Shown in pieces: positions 2,331 through 61,071 of a stretch of DNA of 64,000 nt. How positions within the stretch are numbered: position 1 is the stretch's first letter; the number at the start of each line of letters is the position of its first letter. Below the pieces are notes generated by a model, which had not been told where the DNA came from, did no database searches, and was given only the letters and a program-made list of their open reading frames with translations. Source of the DNA: Escherichia phage SelmaRatti. Position numbers and translations under genes: made by a program. The stretch lies in the sequence record MZ501103; one strand, written 5' to 3'.

Positions 2331-5094
2331 CTAGCTCCGCCATTGCTTCATCATGCATATGTTTCTCCTCATCAGTCATAAACTTATACGGGATTGGCAT
2401 ACACTCGATTTTACAATAAGTCCTGTACCAGTCTACAATATTCTCCGTGTTCATATCCTTGCCAATACCCATCATACCAAGATACATTCTTGCATATTTT
2501 GGGTTAGCACTCTGACCTGTTTTAAGGAAGAAATCTTTCTTCTTACCTTTCAGAGCTTCTATGAATGGTTTGATAGTGACATTTGAACACTTCTTAATAT
2601 CTTCCCAGAACATCTCGTGCATCTTATGGAAGAATGCAGCTCGATCATTAGGTTTATCCTTGATATATTGTTCAACATGCTCAACTGTTACATCTTTAAT
2701 AGACTCAAGATGATAGTAGCGAACAAGAAGTAGTTTAGCTTCATACGCATCTGCATGGCGTGGAGCACAATAATCAGGAGTTGAATACAAAATAGCTTTG
2801 ATTCGCTCTTCCGTATATTCCTTCCCAGCACCTTCGATAGTTCCCCAGCTTTCACTGAAAATATCAATAGTTGCACCCTGATCAAGCAAGTAATAGCGTA
2901 GAGTACTAGTATAGTTTCTAGATTCCAGCTCCCTGCGACGTGCATATAGTTGCTGTGCTAACTCCAGCCAACCCTCATCAATGTTATATTGCTCAGAACC
3001 TGCGGAGAATCCACTCGTAGATTTATCAATAAAATAATAGATATTCTGAGCACCACGGTCGCGCCTGATTGCTTGAAAACGCATGTTTGGCGCTTGGTTA
3101 CTGGTTCTAGTGATAACGAATACGTTATCAAAATAGTTGAAGTCAACACCACTAGTTACGGATGGACTACATAATAAGCAATCAATTTGTTGATCAATCA
3201 GCTCATTAGTTGTGTAATCCAGAATACGTCTAATATCCACATCAGACGTAGAATTTGAGTGGATTTCCTTAACTAACGCACCCGTATTACGACGTAATGC
3301 CATACCCTTCTCATTCAGCTCATCAGGGCCACAATCAGATACCAGAATAGATTTCTCACCCATCTCTAGAGAAGTCTGAAGTGCAACCCAAATACTGGAT
3401 TCATCAGGAAACTCATAAGCATGAGCTTTTGACAGCATTTTACGGTGATGATTATAAAATGCAACCGGTTTATCAAACTCGATCAAAGAACCATATGCTT
3501 CAATTGTTTCTGCACTAATATCACCATCTGATAATATAATGATTTTTGCAGTTGCAAGAATATCCCGAAGAACCTGAATACATTCACGACGTTGTTTAAC
3601 AACCGGGGCGAATAATAGGTCGTTCATTACTGCATCACATTCATCGATAAAGATTGCATCAATTTGACCAATAAAACTCTTGAACTTATGCAAAGAGTGA
3701 ATAGTTGTGGACATACGGTCAATAGCACCACGCTTAAAATTAAGCATATCTACAGACTTATCATATTGTCCTGCACTAAATTTCTTAGCATTGGAAGATA
3801 CTAGCGCTCTAGTATTTGTAACTGCTAAAAAGTTGCCAGGAAGAACACCTGCGTCCAGCCATTTAGTTACTGCCGTAGTTTTACCAGTACCAAGACTTGC
3901 CTTAACAAAGGTTATGTGGCCTTTTGGAGGCACAATGTTAATCTTCAGGTATGGAACTTCTGGTGGAGAATCCACTTCTAATTTCTTGAGTGGAACACCC
4001 TTCAGATTTAATGGAATCTCACGTTTAGAATTATTAACAAACGCTTTGAGAGCCTGCTTACGACCGTTATTAAAGTAATCTTGAATATTACGACTGTTAT
4101 CTTTAGTTGCAATATATTCAGATAAAGCGGGTTTAATCTCACGTTCTAGCCATGCGAAATCAACACCATCCTCTAATGCTCTATGGTATAGTTTAGGGAT
4201 AATACGCAAGTACACCCCATCCTCAGCTTCTTCCAATTCGCTGATAGTTTCTTCTACTTTATCAGACGCGATCTTTTTGCCTTTAATTTGGTCAAGTAAG
4301 GAATAGAATTCCTCTTTGAACTCCCCTCTAGTTGTTTCATAGTCAACCAGATTATTAGGCAAATTTACCTTCGAACCTTTAACATACACCAGACGTGGCT
4401 TACTATCCGCTTTAAACGGATCAACAATACCATCACTAAATAAAGGATCGGCAAAATAATGGAGCTGGACAGATGAATAATAAGCTAAGTCGGCAATGTC
4501 AAAACCGAATTTTTGCTTACTACTATCATTGATAGACGTAAATAAGAACTTTAACTGACCTTGAGTTACCTTGACGTTAGATTCTAGCATTAAGTGCATT
4601 CGGATACCTGGTTTTAGGCCAGCCGAAGACGATGCATGAGCAATAAACCCTGCATCAAGAGGAAACATGTCCTCACTAATACTATTCAACATCTTAATAA
4701 TGTGACGGGCCATGCCTACAAGATTAAACTTGTCGTACCCACCGGTATCTAGGATACCATCCACGTCCATAGCAATAATATTGCTAGGGTTAGACACATT
4801 AAAGTTACCTTTCTTACGTCGCACATTATTTTTAGGTGCAAGACATCGACCTCGTACCGCAACGATATGAGGGTCAGACGTTAAACGTCTCATAAGTGGT
4901 AACATTTCGGCAAGGCTTTGCGGGTCGTGCTCTTCTATTACATCAAATTTGAAGGGCATAGAGGCTGGTTTACCTTCTGGATGCTCTTTCGAGAATCGCT
5001 TGGCAAAGGTATAATCTTCCGCTTTGATTTCTCGCCAAATACCTGTTGCTAAATCACGAGAAAATCCGGCGTGACCTTGAAGAATAGAAAACAC
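2305..5094 (-). CDS. large P-loop ATPase, SF2-helicase-like, possible replication-initiation or origin-binding protein (929 aa)
   Basis: Walker A SLGTGKTT and DExD-like Walker B IFIDECD in the central region; 2.8-kb ORF. Confidence 0.6.
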   Translation of the reverse strand: MFSILQGHAGFSRDLATGIWREIKAEDYTFAKRFSKEHPEGKPASMPFKFDVIEEHDPQSLAEMLPLMRRLTSDPHIVAVRGRCLAPKNNVRRKKGNFNVSNPSNIIAMDVDGILDTGGYDKFNLVGMARHIIKMLNSISEDMFPLDAGFIAHASSSAGLKPGIRMHLMLESNVKVTQGQLKFLFTSINDSSKQKFGFDIADLAYYSSVQLHYFADPLFSDGIVDPFKADSKPRLVYVKGSKVNLPNNLVDYETTRGEFKEEFYSLLDQIKGKKIASDKVEETISELEEAEDGVYLRIIPKLYHRALEDGVDFAWLEREIKPALSEYIATKDNSRNIQDYFNNGRKQALKAFVNNSKREIPLNLKGVPLKKLEVDSPPEVPYLKINIVPPKGHITFVKASLGTGKTTAVTKWLDAGVLPGNFLAVTNTRALVSSNAKKFSAGQYDKSVDMLNFKRGAIDRMSTTIHSLHKFKSFIGQIDAIFIDECDAVMNDLLFAPVVKQRRECIQVLRDILATAKIIILSDGDISAETIEAYGSLIEFDKPVAFYNHHRKMLSKAHAYEFPDESSIWVALQTSLEMGEKSILVSDCGPDELNEKGMALRRNTGALVKEIHSNSTSDVDIRRILDYTTNELIDQQIDCLLCSPSVTSGVDFNYFDNVFVITRTSNQAPNMRFQAIRRDRGAQNIYYFIDKSTSGFSAGSEQYNIDEGWLELAQQLYARRRELESRNYTSTLRYYLLDQGATIDIFSESWGTIEGAGKEYTEERIKAILYSTPDYCAPRHADAYEAKLLLVRYYHLESIKDVTVEHVEQYIKDKPNDRAAFFHKMHEMFWEDIKKCSNVTIKPFIEALKGKKKDFFLKTGQSANPKYARMYLGMMGIGKDMNTENIVDWYRTYCKIECMPIPYKFMTDEEKHMHDEAMAELGARNDSEE

Positions 5095-53261: not shown

Positions 53262-54236
53262 TTACTCGCTTTCGCTGTTTTGGGTAAAGGTGGAAATATC
53301 AATACCTTTCACCATTTCATCAATCATTTCAGCGATATTAAAACTTTGCACCATTTCCAGCATTGCCGCCTCCATAGCCGCTCCTGCTACCGCTTTCGCT
53401 TTCGCATTAGTCGGGGCGTACTGGTCAACCGCTACACTCAGCAGGTTAGCGATCACTACACGACCAATCGGCGTATCAATATACCCTTTAATCATAAACG
53501 GTGCTTTTTTAGCCGCTACTTTCGTAATTTGAGTCAGTGCAATTTTACCCGCTTCCAGTTTTGCAGCGTTTACAACAGCAGACTTATTGGCGGCAACGAT
53601 AGAAGATACTTTAGTCATGATATTTCCTTTATTTTCAGTAGTTTGAGTGCTAGAATTTACAGCATATTTTTTCGTGTTGTCAATAGGCTGATTTTCCTCC
53701 TTCCAGAAGGAAAAGCCCGCGCTTTCGATAACCCCATCATATATGTATGGGTATATTTCCGACGGTAGCAAAAAATTGCCATCATCATCAAAGGCCATTA
53801 CAGCCGCCAGACGATAACCGTCACTAATTGACCGATTCCAGCCAACGGATAAATAACTCCAAAATGAATCAAGAAAGTTTTCAACGTCATAAAGGTCCTT
53901 ATCATAAGGCTCATAATTTTCTATCGAAAAAGCTTCTAAGCCCACCCCAGTATCATAGGCTTTTACTGTGCTACCTTTTACAATTATAAAATCAGCATCC
54001 AGCCCCCTACTAGAAAGTAGGTGATTATCTCGATTATATAAAACAAGCGTTGCCCCTTGCTTGTACAGTTGCAAAAAACTACTCATATCATAGGCGTCAT
54101 ATTCATCAAAAAAGTTTTGATGAATAGTTTCAGCCTTGTTAACAAAGTGTTTGATGATGGATGTTCTGCTACCATCCAGCAGGTTACACAGCGAACTTTT
54201 TAAGACGGCTGCGTTATCTGGTTTATATAGCCTCAT
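53262..54236 (-). CDS. hypothetical protein (324 aa) with Ala/Lys-rich amphipathic helical C-terminus
   Basis: SD GGGAGG; C-terminal 130 aa of repeated amphipathic/hydrophobic helices (GRVVIANLLSVAVDQ, AVAGAAMEAAMLEMV). Confidence 0.6.
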   Translation of the reverse strand: MRLYKPDNAAVLKSSLCNLLDGSRTSIIKHFVNKAETIHQNFFDEYDAYDMSSFLQLYKQGATLVLYNRDNHLLSSRGLDADFIIVKGSTVKAYDTGVGLEAFSIENYEPYDKDLYDVENFLDSFWSYLSVGWNRSISDGYRLAAVMAFDDDGNFLLPSEIYPYIYDGVIESAGFSFWKEENQPIDNTKKYAVNSSTQTTENKGNIMTKVSSIVAANKSAVVNAAKLEAGKIALTQITKVAAKKAPFMIKGYIDTPIGRVVIANLLSVAVDQYAPTNAKAKAVAGAAMEAAMLEMVQSFNIAEMIDEMVKGIDISTFTQNSESE

Positions 54237-54351
54237 TTGTTGGCCTCCCTCGTTAATCGGTAGAAGAATGATAATGGTATTTTCTTTCTAGGGCAAGTAT
54301 TATTTTACCTTTTTATTTTCCTTGCCTAACGCCTAGTTTTATGCTAACCGC

Positions 54352-54423
54352 GCAGCGGTGTAATAAAGAGCAAAACACGGCGAAGCCACCAGGCCGACGC
54401 GTCGAGGCTTTACTTTAATATTA
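54352..54423 (-). promoter_or_regulatory. structured 5-prime leader candidate (long imperfect inverted repeat) upstream of the 324-aa gene
   Basis: GCAGCGGTGTAATA pairs with TATTACACCGCAGC across about 45 nt containing the palindrome GACGCGTC. Confidence 0.35.
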
Positions 54424-54497
54424 CACCGCAGCGTTTTGCTCGTTAGAAAGCGATTTAGGCCGCGTAAAATTGATTGCAGTTGTTAACACTACCTTTC

Positions 54498-54517
54498 TAC
54501 CCTGTATATTTATACAG
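54498..54517. promoter_or_regulatory. LexA-box-like palindrome CCCTGTATATTTATACAGTA
   Basis: CTGT-N8-ACAG; reverse complement nearly identical to the box at 51739. Confidence 0.6.
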
Positions 54518-54526
54518 TAGGAAAAC

Positions 54527-54596
54527 CTGTGGATAAGCCCTTATATCACCACCTATTGTGTCAAATCATTTTGTGCTGTGGATAACTTTGTGGATA
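54527..54596 (-). promoter_or_regulatory. cluster of three DnaA-box consensus 9-mers (TGTGGATAA on plus strand)
   Basis: Exact TTATCCACA on minus strand at 54527-54535, 54576-54584, 54588-54596. Confidence 0.65.
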
Positions 54597-54635
54597 ACTT
54601 AAATGATAGTGGTTCTCACTTAAACCGATAGTTTC

Positions 54636-54716
54636 TTATAGTTATTATTATAGTAGTGATTATTTTTATAGTTATTATTTTTATAGTTATTATTTTTATA
54701 GTTATTATTTCTATTT
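54636..54716. repeat. AT-rich tandem repeat, about 4 units of ATAGTTATTATTTTT
   Basis: Head-to-tail units; roughly 90 percent A+T; 40 bp from the DnaA-box cluster. Confidence 0.75.
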
Positions 54717-55453
54717 AATTTATAAGTATATTATATAATATGAAATAGTTAGTTGGCTAATGAGATTTTCCGGGATTAGTAGTCTGCTAATAGTTCAGGC
54801 TGTTACAATCCACCAGCATGATTATCATCCTAGCAATTATTAGTCTGCTATCTTTCTAATACACAACAACAAATAAAAGTCAATTAATTTATTTCATAAA
54901 ATAACTCAATGCCCCTTGATTTTAAAAAGTCAATACCTTTTACAACTATTTTTCAATTTTGCTTTTGTTAAATATTTGTTAAATCGAAAATGAGCCGCCT
55001 AAAACGCCCTAGAAAGCGGTAAAATTTTCAGGTATGCCATTGCATAGCCTACCCTCGTTTATCGTCACCACGAGCTTTTTAGATTTTGTCAAGTAGGGGA
55101 GAGCAAATATAAATGAAAAAATTACTTGCCTATTTGCTTTGTTTTGTGGTATTCGCGCGCCCGTTTCTTTTAATTTTAGGCCGTCACCGCACGCCATCCG
55201 GTGAATCGTGTCTTTACGTTTCTTTACAAAAATAAGGTTGCGCCATTTTCGGGAATCCCCTATTATTTATCACGTAGGGCGGCAATGACGAACTACACGG
55301 CGGGAAGTTTACCGCCGCGCTCTTTAAAAATTGGGTATATCTTAAAGTCTATCGGCGGTAAACTTATCTATTATAAGGAATCGACGATATGAAACAAACT
55401 TTATTAATCACCGGTAAACCAGCCAAAAATTGGATGGCAATACTAGAAAGCTG

Positions 55454-55481
55454 TTGACAATAGCTCAACAATCCGTAAAAT
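55454..55481 (+). promoter_or_regulatory. sigma70 promoter (TTGACA-16-TAAAAT), pre-early operon P1
   Basis: Near-consensus -35 and -10 elements. Confidence 0.6.
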
Positions 55482-55587
55482 ATCGATTCACGCAGTACAA
55501 GAAAGGTAGCCAGCAAGGTTTAGAAATGGTCTGGCGAAATATTATGATTGACTTGAAAGAAAATCATAAAAAACTGCAAAAAATTGT

Positions 55588-55616
55588 TTGACAACCTAGC
55601 CGATAGGCTTTAAGAT
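55588..55616 (+). promoter_or_regulatory. sigma70 promoter (TTGACA-17-TAAGAT), pre-early operon P2
   Basis: Consensus -35 with 17-bp spacer, about 140 bp upstream of first pre-early ORF. Confidence 0.6.
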
Positions 55617-55754
55617 GTACCCCGTAGTAACTGCTCTTTAACGACTTGGAAAACGATAATGTTTAGGCTAACTCCTAGTGGATTTTTTCTTATTATCTGC
55701 TACTTTCTAGCAGATAATGCGGAACAATCCATCAAATAACTTGGAGTTTATACC

Positions 55755-56006
55755 ATGAAAAACGTTATTACCGCGCCTAAAATTGGTCAATCCGTCTTCA
55801 TTCCTTTCGTTACTAAAACGGATGAATTAACCGGAAAAGCCGAACGTATTAAAGGTGCGGCGCTTATGCCGTTCGATACAATCGATGCGGTATACGCTGA
55901 AACGGAACGTAGTAACAACGGAAAAACTATTTATAGCGTTCGGGTTAAATCTGGCGACGCTGTAAAGGTTGTTCAACGTAACGAAAAATGGGAAGCCGTA
56001 GCGTAA
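55755..56006 (+). CDS. hypothetical pre-early protein (83 aa)
   Basis: ORF with conserved TGGAGTT RBS context. Confidence 0.55.
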   Translation: MKNVITAPKIGQSVFIPFVTKTDELTGKAERIKGAALMPFDTIDAVYAETERSNNGKTIYSVRVKSGDAVKVVQRNEKWEAVA

Positions 56007-56100
56007 TAGTGTTACTTTATATTCCTCTGTTTCAGGGGAATATAATAATTAACATTAGGTTAATCTAATCCCTTAAATTAAATTAATTGGAGTTATAATC

Positions 56101-56517
56101 ATGGCTAACGTTAAAACCGAAAAATCTGCAAAATTCGCATGGAATGAAGAAAACACCCAGCAGGCTGTTACCATGTATCAGCAGCTCATCAATGAAAACG
56201 GCTTGGAGTTCGCCAACAGCGACGGCCTGAGAGAGATCGCAAAAGCAGTGGGCGCGGCTTCTCCCGTATCCGTTCGGTCAAAATTGTCCAGAGCGAAAGT
56301 CTATCAAAAAAGCGATAAGCCTCGCAAGGTTGGCGGCGGCAGTTCAATTCGCAAGGCGCACTATGTACGCGTTATTGCAAAACATGCTATTGATTCCGGC
56401 ATTATCAAAGACGCTGACGATTTAGCAAGCCTTGAAATCGCAAAATTGGAAACGCTGGACGCCGTGGCGCAACTATTGGGCGTTGCCGATGAAGTAAAGC
56501 AGGCCGCAGGTGAATAA
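56101..56517 (+). CDS. hypothetical pre-early protein (138 aa)
   Basis: ORF with TGGAGTTATAATC-ATG context. Confidence 0.55.
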   Translation: MANVKTEKSAKFAWNEENTQQAVTMYQQLINENGLEFANSDGLREIAKAVGAASPVSVRSKLSRAKVYQKSDKPRKVGGGSSIRKAHYVRVIAKHAIDSGIIKDADDLASLEIAKLETLDAVAQLLGVADEVKQAAGE

Positions 56518-56574
56518 ATTTAATTAGCTGGGAATATTCCCCGCTATAATTTCCCTTTGACTGGAGTTATTAAA

Positions 56575-56772
56575 ATGATCTTTTACCCCACTGAATCGCT
56601 AATTTTAGGCTTATTTATTATGGCGGCCTCATTATTATTTGCTTATTTTCAAAATGATTTAGATTCGTATTATTTTAAGCGAAAAGCTAAATTGGCAAAG
56701 CGTTTAGGTCTGATTTGTTTTATTGCCGCCATTGCTCTTGGTGTAAGTTCAAGCCTAATGCCTATTAGTTAA
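56575..56772 (+). CDS. small membrane protein (65 aa)
   Basis: ATG 56575 after CTGGAGTT RBS; two TM helices. Confidence 0.5.
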   Translation: MIFYPTESLILGLFIMAASLLFAYFQNDLDSYYFKRKAKLAKRLGLICFIAAIALGVSSSLMPIS

Positions 56773-56869
56773 ATATTGCAAATTATAACGCCACTCATTT
56801 GCGGCGTTATATCTGGCAATATTTGCCAATAACAAACGTTTTTAATCCCTTCAATGGAGTTTTATTACT

Positions 56870-58534
56870 ATGGTTATTTCCGCAGAAAAACAAATCCAGA
56901 TTCTCAACCTTGCCGCTGATTTTAATTTTTATGGTAAACGTCTGCGCGCTACTAAGCTGGAAGTTTGTGACGATATATCAAAAGCTGTTTATGATACGCC
57001 GAAACATTCCACCGCTATTTGTGACTGGCTGGAAGCAAATAAGCCAGCGAAACCGAAAGCGGCAAAAGCTGAAAAGGCGATTAAAAACGATGATCGCCCC
57101 GAAGCGGCTGGGATTGTTTCTAGTACGGTGGAGCAATGGGAAGTAAAACAAGGTAAACGCTTTATTATTACATCGATTCAGAATAATACGTTCCCACATA
57201 AAAACTTTTTAGCCTCGCTTGAACAATATGCCCAGTTTATCGGCGCTGATTTGCTTGTTTCTAAGTATATTTATAATAAAAACGGATTCCAAAATGGAGA
57301 AGGGGCAGACGGTATCAAATATGATTCCGCATTTGATAAATATATCTGCGAGAAAAATGTATTTTTAAACAATCGCCGTTTTGCTTTCATGGCTGAAATT
57401 AATGTTTTGCCAACCGCAGATTATCCGCTTTCTGGATTCGCTGAAACTGCAACGGCTTTAAATATTGAAGGGCTGGCAATTGGTCACGCTAAAATTACCG
57501 CCGAAAGCGTGCCAGCTTTAAAAGGTGGAGTAGTGCGCCGTATGTATTCAACCGGAACGGCAACGTTAAAAAACTACATTCAGCAGAAAGCAGGACAAAA
57601 GGCCGGGGCGCTGCATAATTTCGGGGCGCTTATTGTTGAGTTCGACGACGACGGGGAATTTTTTGTTCGCCAGCTTGAAACGATGGACGAAAGCGGCGTT
57701 TTTTACGATTTGAATATTTACGCCACTCCCACCGGATGCTATGAAACAACGGGGCACGTTTTAGGTTTACAATATGGCGATATTCACGCCGAAAAATTAG
57801 ATGATGATTGTGCCGTTGCGTCATGGGCTGGCGAAAATAGCTTGCTTGATATTTTAAAGCCTAAATATCAGTTTGTGCATGACGTGCATGATTTTACATC
57901 GCGCAATCACCACAACCGCGCGTCTGGTGTATTCCTAGCGAAACAGTATGCAGCCGGACGTGATAAAGTTCTGGATGATCTCATCGACACGGGGCGCGTG
58001 CTGGAATCAATGGAACGCGATTTCTCGCAAACAATCATCGTGGAGTCTAACCATGATCTGGCGCTTTCCCGCTGGCTGGATGATCGTAATGCTAACATTA
58101 AAGACGACCCAGCAAACGCGGAACTATATCACCGCCTTAATGCTGCAATCTATGAAGCTATTGCAGAAAAAGACGACACTTTCAACGTGCTAGATTATGC
58201 GCTGCGCAAGGTTGCAGGCTGTGAATTTAACGCCATTTTCCTTACTACTGATCAATCTTTCAAGATTGCAGGCATTGAATGCGGCGTACACGGTCACAAT
58301 GGCATTAACGGAAGCCGTGGCAATCCGAAACAGTTTAAGAAATTGGGCAAATTAAACACCGGACACACTCACACGGCTAGTATTTACGGCGGCGTATATA
58401 CCGCTGGCGTGGCTGGTTCCCTTGATATGGGTTACAACGTTGGCGCGTCAAGCTGGACGCAAACGCATTTAATTACCTATGCGAACGGCCAGCGCACTTT
58501 GATTGACTTTAAAAACGGCAAATTTTTCGCGTAA
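56870..58534 (+). CDS. A1: A1-like pre-early protein, SbcD/Mre11-like metallophosphoesterase
   Basis: 554 aa; phosphoesterase motifs GDIH, HDVHD, ESNHD, GVHGHNG, GHTHT; position in pre-early operon upstream of dmp. Confidence 0.6.
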   Translation: MVISAEKQIQILNLAADFNFYGKRLRATKLEVCDDISKAVYDTPKHSTAICDWLEANKPAKPKAAKAEKAIKNDDRPEAAGIVSSTVEQWEVKQGKRFIITSIQNNTFPHKNFLASLEQYAQFIGADLLVSKYIYNKNGFQNGEGADGIKYDSAFDKYICEKNVFLNNRRFAFMAEINVLPTADYPLSGFAETATALNIEGLAIGHAKITAESVPALKGGVVRRMYSTGTATLKNYIQQKAGQKAGALHNFGALIVEFDDDGEFFVRQLETMDESGVFYDLNIYATPTGCYETTGHVLGLQYGDIHAEKLDDDCAVASWAGENSLLDILKPKYQFVHDVHDFTSRNHHNRASGVFLAKQYAAGRDKVLDDLIDTGRVLESMERDFSQTIIVESNHDLALSRWLDDRNANIKDDPANAELYHRLNAAIYEAIAEKDDTFNVLDYALRKVAGCEFNAIFLTTDQSFKIAGIECGVHGHNGINGSRGNPKQFKKLGKLNTGHTHTASIYGGVYTAGVAGSLDMGYNVGASSWTQTHLITYANGQRTLIDFKNGKFFA

Positions 58535-58591
58535 TTAAATTATTTCCCTAGCGGCTTGAAATATAGCCGCTATTATAGGAGCTAAATTAGA

Positions 58592-58849
58592 ATGAAAGTT
58601 ACATTACCCAAAACATTGGACGAAAAAGTATTCATTTCACCGGATGAAATGGAATCCGGTGAAGTTTACAGCTTCGGGCCTATCCTAGCCGCCAAAACTA
58701 ATACGGATGGCATTATTACGGTCAATTATCGTGATAATGATATTGTTCCTTTTGAAGATGATGACGCTTTTTATGAGTGGCTAATCGTTAATAATTTACC
58801 CGTAGACGGTGAATTAACGCCATATCAAATGCAAATTATCATTAAATAA
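58592..58849 (+). CDS. hypothetical pre-early protein (85 aa)
   Basis: ORF with RBS AGGAG. Confidence 0.5.
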   Translation: MKVTLPKTLDEKVFISPDEMESGEVYSFGPILAAKTNTDGIITVNYRDNDIVPFEDDDAFYEWLIVNNLPVDGELTPYQMQIIIK

Positions 58850-58860
58850 AGGTATCAATA

Positions 58861-59151
58861 ATGAAAATTAATTTACCTAGTAGTGAGTTTTCCCCTAAAT
58901 CCCTTTTATTAGATGATATTATTAATCAATATTCTTACATAAACGGGGAAGTATATCGCGCTTGTTCTGACTTCCTAGATTATCCCGATTATCCAATCTA
59001 TAAGGGTGATTTCATTATACCTGTTTATAATGGTGTGCTAGTAGTATGTAAAGCTGGGGCTATTGTTATAGATAGCTGCACATTATCACAAGAAACGTTT
59101 AAAGTGCCGATAGAGTTAACTAATTATTCTACTAGTATCACAGTACAATAA
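58861..59151 (+). CDS. hypothetical pre-early protein (96 aa)
   Basis: ORF. Confidence 0.5.
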   Translation: MKINLPSSEFSPKSLLLDDIINQYSYINGEVYRACSDFLDYPDYPIYKGDFIIPVYNGVLVVCKAGAIVIDSCTLSQETFKVPIELTNYSTSITVQ

Positions 59152-59187
59152 ATTAAGTCCCTTATTAAATTAATTGGAGTCATAAAC

Positions 59188-59583
59188 ATGGATAAATCTA
59201 ACCGTATCCCATTCGATCGCGCTCAGTCTTCTATTGTTCTGGTTTATTCTAATGGTGAACGTTACCACGTCGAGGCGGGGCACGTTATTGGTGAATTGCT
59301 AGACTTTAACGAGGCGCTACAGGTTACTACTTTCGCCTATACCACGGGCAAGGCAGCAAGCCGCATTAAAGCGAAAGGCGTTTATATTGATACCATGAAA
59401 CAAGAAACCATCATTATTGACGCTGTAAAATCAGGTCTAGCCTTTGCAGTAGTCGCACCTTGCCCCGCTTGCCTCGATGATCAATTGATTAGCGCAAAAG
59501 TATATACTTGTGCGGGTATTCGTTCCAATGTATCCGGTGAGGATGTTAGTTTTATCGCTGATGCGTTGGCTTATGGTCTTTAA
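59188..59583 (+). CDS. hypothetical pre-early protein (131 aa), possible A2-like partner
   Basis: ORF with TTGGAGTCATAAAC-ATG context; A2 assignment is positional guess only. Confidence 0.45.
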   Translation: MDKSNRIPFDRAQSSIVLVYSNGERYHVEAGHVIGELLDFNEALQVTTFAYTTGKAASRIKAKGVYIDTMKQETIIIDAVKSGLAFAVVAPCPACLDDQLISAKVYTCAGIRSNVSGEDVSFIADALAYGL

Positions 59584-59596
59584 TAGTTAATTTATT

Positions 59597-59620
59597 ATTG
59601 CCCGCTGATAAATAGCGGGC
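59597..59620 (+). terminator. hairpin, weak terminator or attenuator
   Basis: TTGCCCGCT-loop-AGCGGGCAA without a strong T-run. Confidence 0.35.
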
Positions 59621-59663
59621 AATGCTGAATTAATCTAATCCCTTAAATGGAGAACGTAACAAA

Positions 59664-60398
59664 ATGAATCAAGTTAAAACGAATATTACCCGCAATTTCC
59701 CGCATATTTCCCGCGTCATGATTTGGGACTTAGACGGCACTATCGTTAATTCATTCCATCGCGTAGCGCCTTGCTTTGATGATAACGGGAATCTAGATTT
59801 AAATAAGTATTCCCGCGAAGCCTGCAAACATAATTTAATAATGCAAGATACTTTATTGCCGCTTGTTACATATATGCGCCAGTGCATGAATGACGCAAAT
59901 ACTTTAAACATTATCTGTACAGCTCGACTGATGAGAAAGTCGGACTATTATTATTTGCGTAAACAAGGCTTACGAGGGGGTGTGAATAGTAATATCCGTG
60001 TATTTTCCCGCGATACACTACACAAATATTTTAAAGCTGATAAGGTTAGCGAAATATACCACAGCAAAGACGCAGTATATAAATCTTATTATTTTGAATT
60101 ATTTAAACAGTTATATCCGAACGCTGATTTTACAATGATTGATGATCATAAAGGCGTGCTATCAGCGGCGGCATCATACGGATTTAAAACGCTGGACGCG
60201 CAAGCCGTTAACGATATTCTATCAATCGGCGTGGCATTGATAGGTGAAACCTTTATCGATGAATCTCTTGAGGATGATAATGATTATCAGTTCCTAGCCG
60301 ACCGTCTGCAATTATGTTGGGAAGGTATGACCGAGGAAGAACGCGCAGAATATAGTTGCAGCCCGCAACAATATATTGAGAAACTAAAAGTTGCGTAA
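59664..60398 (+). CDS. dmp: 5-prime-deoxyribonucleotidase, HAD-family (Dmp-like)
   Basis: 244 aa; HAD motif I in VMIWDLDGTIVNS. Confidence 0.7.
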   Translation: MNQVKTNITRNFPHISRVMIWDLDGTIVNSFHRVAPCFDDNGNLDLNKYSREACKHNLIMQDTLLPLVTYMRQCMNDANTLNIICTARLMRKSDYYYLRKQGLRGGVNSNIRVFSRDTLHKYFKADKVSEIYHSKDAVYKSYYFELFKQLYPNADFTMIDDHKGVLSAAASYGFKTLDAQAVNDILSIGVALIGETFIDESLEDDNDYQFLADRLQLCWEGMTEEERAEYSCSPQQYIEKLKVA

Positions 60399-60417
60399 TA
60401 ATTAAAGTTGAAATTGT

Positions 60418-60451
60418 TTCACCCTGCAATTAAAATGGTTGCAGGGTGAAA
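60418..60451. terminator. long hairpin between convergent dmp and HNH genes
   Basis: TCACCCTGCAA-loop-TTGCAGGGTGA. Confidence 0.45.
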
Positions 60452-60573
60452 TAGTTAGCAGGGTAATAGTAACGGGGGTGGCGGTTAGGAGACTAAGTAT
60501 TCTCCCACTAGCCACTGCACCCACCCACGCGTACGTAATCCAAAGAATTTGGTAAAAGTCATTTTAGTGCTAA

Positions 60574-61071
60574 TTAATTATGATTTGCAAACTCGCCGTG
60601 ATAATGCTCCCTGGCTTTTTTAAGCTCTTTTTCAGCCTGCTCAATGGTTTTAAAAGTTCCTACGGTAATTCTATTGCCATTTACACGTAGTTTTGCTTCG
60701 AACTTTTCCTCCCCACGTTTATATACCCCCTTAACTCCGGTAGATTCATTTTTCCATCCCGAAGAGTTTTTGCCATTCTCTGCATTTGTTGCTTTACGCA
60801 GGTTATTCCACCTATTGTTGAAAGGGTCTTGATCTTTATGATCAATGAGAAACTCACTAGGATCTTCTCCTGTCATGTATAGATACGCTACCAGATGGGC
60901 CTTATATAACCCATTACTGCCCATTGATAGGGATATTCCTGAGCTATTTCTACTGCCTGCTGGCTTACCTTTACGACTCCCTGAGTTCCAAGTAAATATA
61001 CCCGTCTCTGGATCATAATCAAATTTCTTCTGGTATTCTGCTAAGGGGAGTAGAGGTTTATGATTTGCCAT
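60574..61071 (-). CDS. HNH homing endonuclease (AP2-like)
   Basis: LIDHKDQDPFNNRWNNLRKATNAEN HNH motif. Confidence 0.7.
   Translation of the reverse strand: MANHKPLLPLAEYQKKFDYDPETGIFTWNSGSRKGKPAGSRNSSGISLSMGSNGLYKAHLVAYLYMTGEDPSEFLIDHKDQDPFNNRWNNLRKATNAENGKNSSGWKNESTGVKGVYKRGEEKFEAKLRVNGNRITVGTFKTIEQAEKELKKAREHYHGEFANHN

What the first reader, a model, noticed from the sequence alone, without database searches (positions are those of the whole stretch)
55454..60400. Pre-early operon with tandem host-type promoters, a conserved translation-initiation context and a repeated 19-mer
Seen in sequence: consensus-like sigma70 promoters at 55454 and 55588 precede a plus-strand operon whose ORFs nearly all start with the context TGGAGTT(A/T)TAA-N-ATG (55741, 56087, 56562, 56857, 59176). 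The 19-mer TTAATCTAATCCCTTAAAT occurs twice (56066 and 59626), each time just upstream of a gene start. The operon encodes an A1-like metallophosphoesterase and a Dmp-like HAD nucleotidase plus five unassigned proteins. Established knowledge: T5 pre-early genes are read by unmodified host polymerase and include host-shutoff and anti-restriction functions. Inference: the unassigned ORFs are candidate anti-defence proteins, and the 19-mer is a candidate translational or RNA-processing operator.
Basis: partly seen in the sequence, partly recalled or inferred. Interest (0 to 1): 0.5.

Follow-up and report, generated by a model that had tools for sequence, protein, structure and literature searches.

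The report
T5-type pre-early operon control signals
This is the well-known "first-injected" operon of a T5-like phage. Its repeated 19-mer is two copies of a short conserved box placed before nearly every gene, and the operon's leaders carry ribosomal-RNA-type BoxA signals, which I could not find described for T5.

Summary
The promoters at 55454 and 55588 exist and correspond to T5 P-H22 and P-D/E20. The 19-mer is exact at 56060 and 59630, not 56066 and 59626. The TGGAGTY/AT-rich/ATG context occurs only at five gene starts of this operon in the 64 kb.

The locus is the left pre-early (first-step-transfer) operon of a Tequintavirus: 009, hdi, 007, A2, 005, A1, 003-like, an extra ORF, 002, dmp.

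The 19-mer is not a unit. Relatives conserve only a 12-nt "C-box" (AATCCCTTWAAT) at a fixed distance 5' of GGAG before A2, 005, A1 and dmp (29/29 each). Proteus and Klebsiella relatives have a similar box. Each junction also has a hairpin conserved as structure, with compensatory changes and no U-tract.

New here: two rRNA-type BoxA elements, at 55319-55329 (perfect consensus, invariant in 29/29) and at 55633-55643 (16 nt after the P-D/E20 -10). The "strong promoter then BoxA" layout recurs in Klebsiella, Proteus and Vibrio relatives.

Best reading: host Nus-factor-modified transcription plus an operon-specific translation-initiation module. The C-box partner is unknown. The anti-defence roles proposed for the ORFs remain untested.

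The parts
55238..55266 (+). Candidate third promoter 'P009': TTGCGC-17-TATTAT
   Evidence: In 29 aligned relatives the hexamers have pairwise identity 0.98 and 1.0 while the spacer is 0.67, which is the neutral level. It falls below the scan threshold (-35 is 3/6). A homologous TTGCAC-16-TATATT is present in Proteus phage Stubb. Inferred, not mapped.
55298..55317 (+). boxB-like hairpin CGGCGG-N8-CCGCCG directly 5' of BoxA-1
   Evidence: Seen in the sequence and predicted by RNAfold. The stem is kept while the loop differs in L010, L012 and Klebsiella L047. The order hairpin then BoxA matches the E. coli rrnH leader.
55319..55329 (+). BoxA-1 GCTCTTTAAAA
   Evidence: Perfect match to the published consensus GYTCTTTAANA (PMC5725501). 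All 11 columns are invariant in 29/29 relatives. 13 nt are identical to the E. coli 16S-23S spacer BoxA. It lies inside the annotated 'T5.009' ORF, which is not conserved as coding.
55285..55392 (+). T5.009-like ORF (35 codons), probably a non-coding leader
   Evidence: In relatives the ORF is 16-56 aa with frameshifts. The ATG is absent in L008, L033, L034 and Klebsiella L047, yet the nucleotides are the most conserved of the region.
55389..55591 (+). hdi (T5.008) homolog, frameshifted in this window
   Evidence: The reading frame stops after 22 codons and the remainder continues in the ORF 55430-55591. 24 relatives have an intact 67-aa Hdi.
55454..55481 (+). Promoter equivalent to T5 P-H22
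   Evidence: 11/12. The T5 annotation places P-H22 at 4799-4873. Hexamers have pairwise identity 0.93 against 0.74 for the spacer. It is a pre-early promoter in vivo in T5 (PMC7472727).
55588..55616 (+). Promoter equivalent to T5 P-D/E20; its -35 overlaps the hdi stop codon
   Evidence: 10/12. Hexamers have pairwise identity 0.99. The bioRxiv preprint describes P-D/E20 as partly overlapping hdi. The coordinates in the T5 record (4338-4664) do not cover this site, so the naming is inferred.
55633..55643 (+). BoxA-2 GCTCTTTAACG, 16 nt after the -10 of P-D/E20
   Evidence: 10/11 to the consensus. AACTGCTCTTTAAC is 14 nt identical to the rrnH leader. Relatives with the same short leader have perfect versions (L008 GCTCTTTAACA, L032 and L033 GCTCTTTAAAA).
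55693..55717 (+). Leader hairpin before the T5.007 homolog
   Evidence: RNAfold. Present with stem variants in relatives.
55755..56006 (+). T5.007 homolog (DUF7177)
   Evidence: The SD context TGGAGTT is at 55742.
56018..56044 (+). Intercistronic hairpin 007|A2 (12 bp, no U-tract)
   Evidence: 100% of cells are paired, 4 of 10 pairs show double changes, and one pair shows UA, CG, AU and GC. 0 of 500 shuffles reach the covariation score.
56060..56078 (+). 19-mer copy 1. Its 5' TTAAT(C) is the 3' arm of a small hairpin (56048-56064); its 3' part is the C-box AATCCCTTAAAT (56067-56078)
   Evidence: CCC is present in 29/29 relatives, 16-17 nt before GGAG.
56088..56094 (+). SD context TGGAGTT of A2
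56101..56517 (+). A2 DNA-binding protein
   Evidence: PHROG 1725, E = 2e-50. Synteny with T5.006.
56527..56546 (+). Intercistronic hairpin A2|005
   Evidence: A second, unrelated spacer allele in relatives has a different hairpin but again TTCCCTTAAATCAGGAG.
56550..56568 (+). C-box TTTCCCTTT plus TGGAGTT of the T5.005 homolog
   Evidence: CCC in 29/29.
56575..56772 (+). T5.005 homolog, small membrane protein
   Evidence: PHROG 4820.
56784..56828 (+). Two intercistronic hairpins 005|A1
56844..56861 (+). C-box AATCCCTTCAAT plus TGGAGTT of A1
   Evidence: CCC lies exactly 6 nt before GGAG in 29/29 relatives. The box is kept although the sequence just 5' of it exists as two unrelated alleles.
56870..58534 (+). 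A1
   Evidence: PHROG 1745, E = 1e-243. 92-96% aa identity to T5-like A1.
58543..58581 (+). TTTCCCT, then a hairpin (58549-58572), then AGGAG of the T5.003-like ORF
58592..58849 (+). T5.003-slot ORF (PHROG 8297)
58861..59151 (+). Extra 96-aa ORF, a rare accessory cassette
   Evidence: No Pfam or PHROG hit. tblastn finds it in only 4 distinct T5-like phages. It has no C-box and a weak SD.
59155..59181 (+). C-box AAGTCCCTTATT plus TGGAGTC of the T5.002 homolog
   Evidence: CCC in 24/28.
59188..59583 (+). T5.002 homolog
   Evidence: PHROG 4576.
59597..59623 (+). Intercistronic hairpin 002|dmp
   Evidence: A-U to G-C compensation occurs, and relatives carry four non-homologous hairpin alleles at this site.
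59630..59652 (+). 19-mer copy 2 (C-box 59637-59648) abutting GGAG of dmp
   Evidence: CCC 6 nt before GGAG in 29/29.
59664..60398 (+). dmp, deoxynucleoside-5'-monophosphatase
60417..60451 (+). Perfect 13-bp-core hairpin after dmp, close to the terminal-repeat boundary
   Evidence: RNAfold -28.9 kcal/mol for 60390-60470. The same hairpin is present in T5.

Best explanation
The region is the left pre-early (first-step-transfer) operon of a T5-like phage, and three layers of cis signals control it.

(1) Transcription. Host sigma-70 RNA polymerase starts at P-H22 and P-D/E20, and probably at an upstream 'P009'. The transcripts carry rRNA-operon-type BoxA elements at 55319 and 55633. By inference, NusB-S10 binds them, together with NusA, NusG and SuhB. 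This would make the polymerase fast and resistant to Rho and to pausing across the 5-kb operon.

(2) mRNA structure. Every intercistronic spacer has a hairpin that is conserved as structure and lacks a U-tract. These are not terminators. They are inferred to act as mRNA-stabilising or cistron-insulating elements.

(3) Translation. Most cistrons carry the same initiation module: C-box AATCCCTTWAAT, a 0-10 nt A/T-rich gap (6-17 nt from the CCC run to GGAG), (T)GGAG(TY), 6-11 nt of mostly A/T, then ATG. The 19-mer is simply two C-boxes that share extra flanking identity.

I take the C-box to be a cis-acting RNA element of the ribosome-binding region. Most likely it is an upstream enhancer or standby pyrimidine patch for the 30S subunit and protein S1. 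This would let each cistron be translated independently on RNA made by an uncoupled, fast polymerase.

Shown: identity of the operon, the motifs, and their specificity and conservation. Inferred: Nus binding, the antitermination effect, and the enhancer role.
For: Identity. About 89% nt identity over 92% of the region to many Tequintavirus genomes, with A2-A1-dmp synteny and matching PHROG families.

BoxA.
- 55319-55329 fits GYTCTTTAANA perfectly, including the critical C4.
- It is invariant in 29/29 relatives, whereas third codon positions are 0.65-0.78 identical.
- 13-14 nt are identical to the E. coli rrnH BoxAs, and 19 nt in relative L008.
- In 28 distinct T5-like loci, all but one of the BoxA 9-mer (GYTCTTTAA) matches lie on the sense strand 1.2-1.8 kb upstream of A1.
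- The other exact or near-exact matches in the window lie inside coding sequence: 9752 is antisense to a gene and 34592 is within an open reading frame.
- A strong promoter followed by BoxA 16-30 nt after the -10 recurs where the sequence is otherwise unalignable: Klebsiella GlastoCabaret, Proteus Stubb (three such + strand promoters, a fourth BoxA behind a weaker one, and one on the divergent operon) and Vibrio 70E35-1.

Hairpins. Compensatory changes, replacement by non-homologous hairpins, and none scored as an intrinsic terminator.

C-box.
- The composite TCCCTT-N2-16-GGAG-N4-12-ATG occurs 5 times in the window, all in this operon, against 0.1 expected.
- In T5 a CCC run lies at -45 to -9 in 7/7 operon genes, against 12/77 early genes and 2/7 right-operon genes. 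My hypergeometric estimate from these counts (left-operon versus early genes) is p of about 1e-5.
- GGAGT occurs in 5/7 operon genes against 3/77 early genes.
- CCC is present in 29/29 relatives for A2, 005, A1 and dmp, with a fixed spacing at each junction.
- It is retained when the flanking spacer alleles are unrelated.
- It is present before A2, A1 and dmp of Proteus phage Stubb (TTTCCCT...AGGAG), although A1 there is only 42% identical.
Against: - There are no binding, reporter or transcript data. Nus recruitment and its direction of effect are inferred. At suhB a BoxA represses translation rather than acting purely as an antiterminator (PMC5725501).
- BoxA-2 has G instead of A at position 11. 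The T5-type long leader has only a 10/11 suhB-like GTTCTTTAAAT, which is degraded to GTTCCTTAAAT in at least five relatives.
- P009 is a weak consensus match and is unmapped.
- Nothing positive supports the enhancer reading of the C-box. Complementarity to 16S rRNA is no better than for shuffled sequences.
- In-silico folding suggests the CCC can instead pair weakly with the SD.
- The right pre-early operon lacks the box, so it is not a general pre-early signal.
Confidence: 0.6

Rival explanations
1. The C-box or 19-mer is an operator for a trans-acting factor. A phage-encoded or host RNA-binding repressor or endoribonuclease would recognise AAUCCCUU next to the SD and coordinately shut off or process the left-operon mRNAs, as T4 RegA or RegB do for T4 early mRNAs.
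For: Sequence rather than structure is conserved. The orientation and the position relative to the SD are fixed, and the box is specific to the operon. The uniform GGAG SD recalls the RegB target (my own knowledge). A1-dependent shutoff of pre-early expression is known (annotation).
Against: No candidate regulator was identified. The right pre-early operon, which belongs to the same temporal class, lacks the box. The published shutoff model is transcriptional, with A1 acting on RNA polymerase. The spacing from box to SD varies from 6 to 17 nt between junctions.
Confidence: 0.2
2. The C-box is a weak cis anti-SD clamp. UCC(C) pairs with GGA(G) of the SD, tuning or delaying initiation, for example until an upstream ribosome or a helicase opens the pairing.
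For: RNAfold pairs the box with the SD at 005, A1, 003-like, 002 and dmp. An in-silico CCC-to-AAA change raises P(SD unpaired) from 0.10 to 0.62 (003), 0.42 to 0.66 (002), 0.33 to 0.66 (dmp) and 0.15 to 0.31 (005).
Against: Only 2-4 base pairs form, with loops of 6-18 nt. No effect is predicted at A2 and almost none at A1. A true anti-SD (CUCC) is never seen. Changes next to the box or the SD (GGAGC, TTATCCC, TAGTCCC) are not compensated.
Confidence: 0.1
3. The C-boxes are BoxA variants (UCCCUUUAA against GCUCUUUAA). They would re-load or retain NusB-S10 at each cistron, or act like the suhB BoxA that lies 6 nt from an SD and represses translation.
For: The two share CUUUAA with the critical C4, followed by A/T-rich sequence and then the SD. 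In Proteus phage Stubb a true BoxA occupies the same position, 8 nt before the SD of the divergent operon's first gene. The suhB precedent is in PMC5725501.
Against: G1 and U3 of the consensus are replaced in every copy, and position 3 is always C, so this is a distinct, selected motif and not a drifting BoxA. Matches to BoxA with 3 mismatches are expected by chance; even 1-mismatch matches number 30 against 19 expected.
Confidence: 0.07
4. There is no dedicated function. The similar initiation regions, including the 19-mer, are leftovers of cassette duplication or gene conversion inside a recombining operon, and the BoxA matches are chance or reflect coding constraint of T5.009.
For: The A2 and 002 initiation regions share about 30 nt, and the A2 and dmp regions share 19 nt, beyond any plausible functional core. 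The operon is mosaic, with spacer alleles, variable cassettes and leader alleles.
Against: The C-box survives replacement of all surrounding sequence and is found in a genus whose A1 is 42% identical. BoxA-1 is invariant while the T5.009 ORF is broken or lacks a start in several relatives. BoxA recurs behind unrelated promoters in four other phage groups.
Confidence: 0.08

Closest known systems
Bacteriophage T5 left pre-early (FST) operon with promoters P-H22 and P-D/E20
   Same: Same gene order (009, hdi, 007, A2, 005, A1, 003 slot, 002, dmp). Same two promoters at the same places relative to hdi. 86-93% nt identity. The same hairpins and C-boxes are present in T5 itself.
   Different: hdi is frameshifted. 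hegG is absent. There is an extra 96-aa ORF between the 003 slot and 002. The leader is the short 170-nt allele, with BoxA directly after P-D/E20, instead of the 235-nt T5 leader.
E. coli rrn operon BoxA antitermination signal (NusB-S10, NusA, NusG, SuhB)
   Same: The sequence fits GYTCTTTAANA. 13-19 nt are identical to the rrnH leader and spacer BoxAs. A hairpin lies just 5' of BoxA-1, as boxB does in rrn. The elements sit close behind very strong promoters.
   Different: They precede protein-coding genes of a virulent phage. No boxC-like sequence was seen. Function was not tested.
Lambda nut sites (boxA plus boxB, with protein N)
   Same: A phage early operon carries a BoxA near its promoter to modify host RNA polymerase.
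   Different: The order is hairpin then BoxA, not BoxA then boxB. No N-like protein is evident among the operon's annotated products (not specifically searched). The BoxA is of the full rrn type rather than the shortened lambda type CGCTCTTA (my own knowledge).
suhB 5'-UTR BoxA (Baniulyte et al. 2017, PMC5725501)
   Same: A BoxA a few nucleotides upstream of an SD in an mRNA. This shows that a box at that position can control translation and Rho termination.
   Different: The C-boxes fail the BoxA consensus at positions 1 and 3. The true BoxAs here are 60-110 nt from the next start codon.
Upstream translational boxes (T7 gene 10 epsilon, cspA upstream box)
   Same: A short conserved box about 5-15 nt 5' of the SD in highly expressed mRNAs (my own knowledge).
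   Different: Those were proposed to pair with 16S rRNA. The C-box shows no complementarity to 16S rRNA above shuffled controls.
T7 early operon with RNase III sites between cistrons; T4 PeSL regulatory cassettes
   Same: A stem-loop plus expression signals repeated at cistron boundaries of an early phage operon, with boundaries that coincide with mosaic cassette exchange (my own knowledge).
   Different: The stems here are 9-13 bp, too short for classical RNase III substrates. No promoter is associated with them.

Membership tests
T5-type left pre-early (FST) operon | Synteny A2 - small membrane ORF - A1 - variable slot - 002 - dmp, with homologous proteins | tested here: met
T5-type left pre-early (FST) operon | Location in the long terminal repeat next to the genome end | tested here: met
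   Relatives annotate this stretch as the terminal repeat. Homology to the physical left end of T5 stops about 110-125 nt after dmp. The window itself reads through, which implies a collapsed or right-hand repeat copy.
T5-type left pre-early (FST) operon | Promoters P-H22 and P-D/E20 inside or overlapping hdi | tested here: met
BoxA (NusB-S10 binding site) | Match to GYTCTTTAANA with C at position 4 | tested here: met
   55319-55329 matches 11/11 and 55633-55643 matches 10/11, both with C4.
BoxA (NusB-S10 binding site) | Sense orientation in a transcribed leader downstream of a promoter | tested here: met
   BoxA-2 lies 16 nt after the -10 of P-D/E20. BoxA-1 lies 52 nt after the candidate P009 -10 and downstream of other + strand promoter-like sites. 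Transcription of BoxA-1 is inferred.
BoxA (NusB-S10 binding site) | Evolutionary conservation beyond the neutral rate and across unalignable relatives | tested here: met
BoxA (NusB-S10 binding site) | Binding of NusB-S10 and Nus-dependent change in termination or translation | not testable with these tools
   Needs EMSA or ITC, ChIP, and reporters in nusB or nusE mutants.
Lambda-type nut site | BoxA followed by a boxB hairpin, plus an N-type arginine-rich antiterminator protein | tested here: not met
   The hairpin precedes BoxA-1 and no boxB follows either BoxA. The annotated products of the operon include no N-like protein, though no dedicated search was made.
Intrinsic (rho-independent) terminators, for the intercistronic hairpins | GC-rich stem immediately followed by a U-tract | tested here: not met
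   No intergenic hairpin of the operon is scored by the terminator scan. The tails are mixed A/T.
RNase III processing sites, for the intercistronic hairpins | About 20 bp or more of (interrupted) double-stranded RNA | tested here: not met
   Stems are 9-13 bp. Only the post-dmp hairpin approaches 20 bp. Cleavage itself is not testable here.
BoxA, for the C-box | Match to GYTCTTTAANA | tested here: not met
   The position matrix of 119 unique instances gives T at position 1 and C at position 3 with no drift towards G or T.
16S-complementary upstream translational enhancers (epsilon or upstream-box type), for the C-box | Complementarity to 16S rRNA above chance | tested here: not met
   Duplex energies against E. 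coli rrsH fall within the shuffled distributions (fraction of shuffles at or below the observed energy 0.17-0.73).
Known RNA families (Rfam) | Covariance-model match | tested here: not met
   Only three sub-threshold chance hits in 54200-60700.

The most novel reading that the evidence does not exclude
T5-family phages encode no N-like antiterminator. Instead they place rRNA-operon BoxA signals directly behind their very strong pre-early promoters. This would convert unmodified host RNA polymerase into an rrn-type, Nus-factor-loaded, Rho-resistant fast elongation complex during the first minutes of infection. Under this reading the annotated gene T5.009 is really this RNA signal. The operon also carries a previously unrecognised C-box initiation element that lets each cistron be translated on such uncoupled transcripts.
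Probability: 0.5. Interest if true: 0.7.

Novelty: new variant of a known kind. Interest (0 to 1): 0.55.

Why it matters
T5 is a classic model whose pre-early phase is expressed entirely by unmodified host polymerase from 8% of the genome. How a 5-kb operon is read completely and quickly has not been explained.

- **BoxA.** A functional BoxA would reveal a host dependency on Nus factors. It would extend BoxA control from rRNA, lambdoid phages and a few cellular mRNAs to a large family of virulent phages. It would also call for re-annotating T5.009 as an RNA signal. That might explain why that locus has resisted cloning and deletion, a difficulty the authors attributed to the strong promoters there.
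- **C-box and hairpins.** The cassette of C-box, SD and hairpin is a compact, portable expression module that marks cassette boundaries in a mosaic operon. It could guide phage engineering and the search for accessory, possibly anti-defence, genes in the variable slot.

Tried and rejected
1. 16S rRNA pairing of the C-box or 19-mer (an epsilon-like idea recalled from memory). RNAduplex against E. coli rrsH gave nothing above shuffled controls. Rejected.
2. Intercistronic hairpins as intrinsic terminators. None has a U-tract and none is scored by the scan. Rejected.
3. The 19-mer as a conserved unit. Relatives conserve only ATCCCTT plus the SD, and the 5' half varies. Rejected.
4. A C-box/SD mini-helix. 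It is predicted in silico, but variants are not compensated. Kept only as a minor rival.
5. Distant A1-encoding environmental contigs L040-L045. They have neither the C-box nor a leader BoxA, so they were uninformative.
6. Rfam scan of 54200-60700. Only chance sub-threshold hits.
7. Scan of viral contigs with AATCCCTT-N2-17-TGGAGTT. The 120 or more hits appear to be almost all in unrelated contigs, i.e. chance matches at that database size. Uninformative.
8. Other BoxA-like matches in the window. 9752(+) and 34592(-) lie inside coding sequence. 54361-54371(-) is the tail of a terminator-like hairpin upstream of the T5.011 promoter. None was counted as a BoxA.
9. Literature searches for BoxA or Nus factors together with T5 found nothing relevant. 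Older subscription papers, such as the T5 genome paper and Davison 2015, could not be read, so prior description cannot be excluded.

Full report
**What the region is.** Window 55400-60450 matches 471 phage records. 288 of them cover most of it at 80-90% identity, and the listed hits are T5-like phages of Escherichia, Salmonella and related hosts. Annotation of chee24 and of T5 itself shows this is the left pre-early, first-step-transfer operon in the terminal repeat. It is read here in the reverse of the T5 map.
- ORFs in window coordinates:
  - T5.009-like 55285-55392
  - hdi (T5.008) from 55389
  - T5.007 homolog 55755-56006
  - A2 56101-56517
  - T5.005 homolog 56575-56772
  - A1 56870-58534
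  - a T5.003-slot ORF 58592-58849
  - an extra ORF 58861-59151
  - T5.002 homolog 59188-59583
  - dmp 59664-60398
- A1 is 92-96% identical to A1 of 37 T5-like contigs.

**Check of the observation.**
- Both promoters are present at the stated coordinates. The 55454 site corresponds to T5 P-H22, which the T5 record annotates inside hdi. The 55588 site has its -35 overlapping the hdi stop codon. That matches the published description of P-D/E20 as partly overlapping hdi (bioRxiv 10.64898/2026.04.02.716235). P-H22 is a pre-early promoter in vivo (PMC7472727). The tandem promoters are therefore real but already known.
- The 19-mer is exact twice, at 56060 and 59630, not at the coordinates given. 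It is far above chance.
- TGGAGTT or TGGAGTC lies 12-15 nt before the ATG of five operon genes. No other TGGAGT in the 64 kb has the look of a ribosome site.
- In T5, GGAGT occurs at 5/7 left-operon starts against 3/77 early genes.

**The 19-mer is part of a broader element.**
- Upstream regions of the operon genes share (A/T)TCCCTT followed by an A/T-rich gap and GGAG.
- The composite TCCCTT-N2-16-GGAG-N4-12-ATG occurs five times in the window, all in this operon, against 0.1 expected. In the first 50 kb of T5, four strict and two loose copies all lie in T5.007 to dmp.
- A census of annotated T5 starts gives a CCC run at -45 to -9 in 7/7 left-operon genes, 12/77 early genes (several of these are tRNA T-arms) and 2/7 right pre-early genes.
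- I aligned 28 distinct relatives. CCC is present before A2, 005, A1 and dmp in 29/29 sequences. The spacing is fixed at each junction: 6 nt to GGAG at A1 and dmp, 16-17 at A2, 7-8 at 005.
- The matrix anchored on CCC reads AATCCCTTWAAT.
- The box is kept where everything around it has been replaced. There are two unrelated A2|005 spacer alleles, two alleles just 5' of the A1 box, and four non-homologous hairpin alleles before dmp.
- The 5' half of the 19-mer is not conserved. At the A2 junction it is simply the 3' arm of a small hairpin.
- Proteus phage Stubb, whose A1 is 42% identical, has TTTCCCT(TT)-A/T-AGGAG before A2, A1 and dmp. Klebsiella phage GlastoCabaret has C-runs plus A-rich sequence plus CTGGAGA. 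A Vibrio relative and environmental A1 loci show it weakly or not at all.

**Hairpins.**
- Every spacer has a stem-loop.
- For the 007|A2 hairpin, 100% of cells pair and four of ten pairs show double changes. One pair occurs as UA, CG, AU and GC. No shuffle reaches the observed covariation.
- The hairpins have no U-tract and are not scored as terminators. Their 9-13 bp stems are short for RNase III.
- I infer that they stabilise or insulate cistrons.

- The leader after P-D/E20 reads GTAGTAACTGCTCTTTAACGAC. The stretch inside 'T5.009' reads CCGCCGCGCTCTTTAAAAATTGGG.
- The published BoxA consensus is GYTCTTTAANA, with C4 critical (PMC5725501). 55319-55329 fits it perfectly and 55633-55643 fits 10/11.
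- From E. coli K-12 itself, the rrnH leader BoxA is AACTGCTCTTTAACAATTT and the spacer BoxA is TGCTCTTTAAAAATCTGG. The window therefore shares 14 and 13 contiguous nucleotides with them, and relative L008 shares 19.
- BoxA-1 is invariant in 29/29 sequences, while third codon positions are 0.65-0.78 identical.
- In 28 distinct T5-like loci, all but one of the matches lie on the sense strand at the head of the operon.
- The other matches in the window lie inside coding sequence.
- A strong promoter followed by BoxA recurs in sequence that is otherwise unalignable:
  - Klebsiella: TTGACA-17-TATTAT, then 21 nt, then BoxA.
  - Proteus Stubb: three near-perfect promoters each followed by BoxA after 16-22 nt, a fourth BoxA behind a weaker promoter-like site, and one BoxA in the divergent operon 8 nt before its SD.
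  - Vibrio: TTGACA-17-TACATT, then 30 nt, then BoxA.
- A GC hairpin abuts BoxA-1 on its 5' side, as boxB does in rrn.
- Upstream lies TTGCGC-17-TATTAT, with conserved hexamers and a neutral spacer.
- The T5.009 ORF that contains BoxA-1 is not maintained. It varies from 16 to 56 aa, carries frameshifts, and has no ATG in L008, L033, L034 or the Klebsiella phage.
- No paper in the searchable library links BoxA or Nus factors with T5. Older subscription literature was not readable.

**Mechanism.**
- Shown: the motifs, their specificity to the operon, and their conservation.
- Established knowledge: NusB-S10 binds BoxA RNA and, with NusA, NusG and SuhB, forms complexes that resist Rho and speed elongation on rrn operons. 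At suhB the same complex represses translation (PMC5725501).
- Inference: pre-early transcripts load this complex, which gives complete and fast synthesis of the 5-kb operon. Because such polymerases outrun ribosomes, each cistron needs an autonomous initiation region and protection of the naked RNA. The C-box/SD module and the hairpins fit that need.
- The specific partner of the C-box is unknown. Pairing to 16S rRNA is not supported. Weak pairing to the SD is predicted but not supported by compensation. It fails the BoxA consensus consistently.
- I favour an upstream enhancer or standby site for the 30S subunit and S1, at roughly one chance in three. An operator for a trans-acting factor is the main rival.

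**The ORFs.**
- The PHROG or Pfam assignments are 007 (DUF7177), A2, the 005 membrane protein, A1, the 003-slot ORF, 002 and dmp.
- The extra 96-aa ORF has no family. It occurs in only four distinct T5-like phages, in the slot that holds zero to two different cassettes in relatives.
- T5 002, 003, 005 and 007 are reported dispensable, and none is among the seven pre-early genes found toxic on ectopic expression. Anti-defence roles remain conjecture.

**Verdict.**
- The locus and its promoters are already known.
They are better described as an operon-specific, family-conserved C-box/SD module with structured spacers.
- The rrn-type BoxA elements appear to be undescribed and are the most interesting result. 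They are supported by sequence, position and cross-genus recurrence, but they are functionally untested.

Noticed in passing
window 55389-55591: hdi, the FtsZ-targeting host division inhibitor (T5.008), is frameshifted. It stops after 22 codons, apparently because an A-run near 55424 is one base shorter than in T5. The rest of the protein is in the ORF 55430-55591. 24 relatives have an intact 67-aa Hdi. This is either a pseudogene or a homopolymer sequencing error.
   Followed up: partly
window 55285-55392: The annotated small gene T5.009 is probably not protein-coding. In relatives the ORF is 16-56 aa with frameshifts or no ATG, yet this is the most conserved DNA of the region and it holds a hairpin plus BoxA.
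   Followed up: yes
window 55238-55266: Candidate unannotated promoter TTGCGC-17-TATTAT, preceded by the conserved TTTCTTTACAAAAATAAGG. Both hexamers are conserved and the spacer is neutral. A homologous arrangement heads both divergent pre-early operons of Proteus phage Stubb.
   Followed up: partly
window 55617-55754: The leader after P-D/E20 is the short 170-nt allele shared with a group that is only about 78% identical (L008, L032-L034), not the 235-nt T5-type leader. This indicates mosaic recombination inside the operon head.
   Followed up: partly
window 58861-59151: A 96-aa ORF with no Pfam or PHROG family. It is found in only four distinct T5-like phages (85% and 59% aa identity). It sits in a variable slot between A1 and 002 that in other phages holds a different small ORF or a larger unrelated insert.
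   Followed up: partly
window 59597-59623 and homologous sites in L003, L014, L032: The hairpin before dmp exists as four non-homologous sequence alleles among relatives, all followed by the same C-box and SD. The structure is conserved while the sequence is replaced.
   Followed up: yes
window 60417-60525: A strong hairpin follows dmp, and homology to the physical left end of T5 stops at about 60505-60525. This is the presumed terminal-repeat boundary, so the window reads from the repeat straight into unique DNA.
   Followed up: partly
window 60574-61071 (- strand): A 165-aa ORF just outside the repeat has an HNH-like motif (IDHKDQDPFNNRWNNLR) and looks like a homing endonuclease. This is judged from the sequence only.
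   Followed up: no
window 54361-54391 (- strand): GCTCTTTATTA is a BoxA-like 10/11 match, but it forms the T-rich tail of a short terminator-like hairpin upstream of the T5.011 promoter. It was not counted as a BoxA.
   Followed up: partly
L048 (Proteus phage Stubb) 1549-1559 (- strand): A perfect BoxA lies 8 nt before the SD of the first gene of the divergent pre-early operon. This geometry resembles the translation-repressing suhB BoxA.
   Followed up: no
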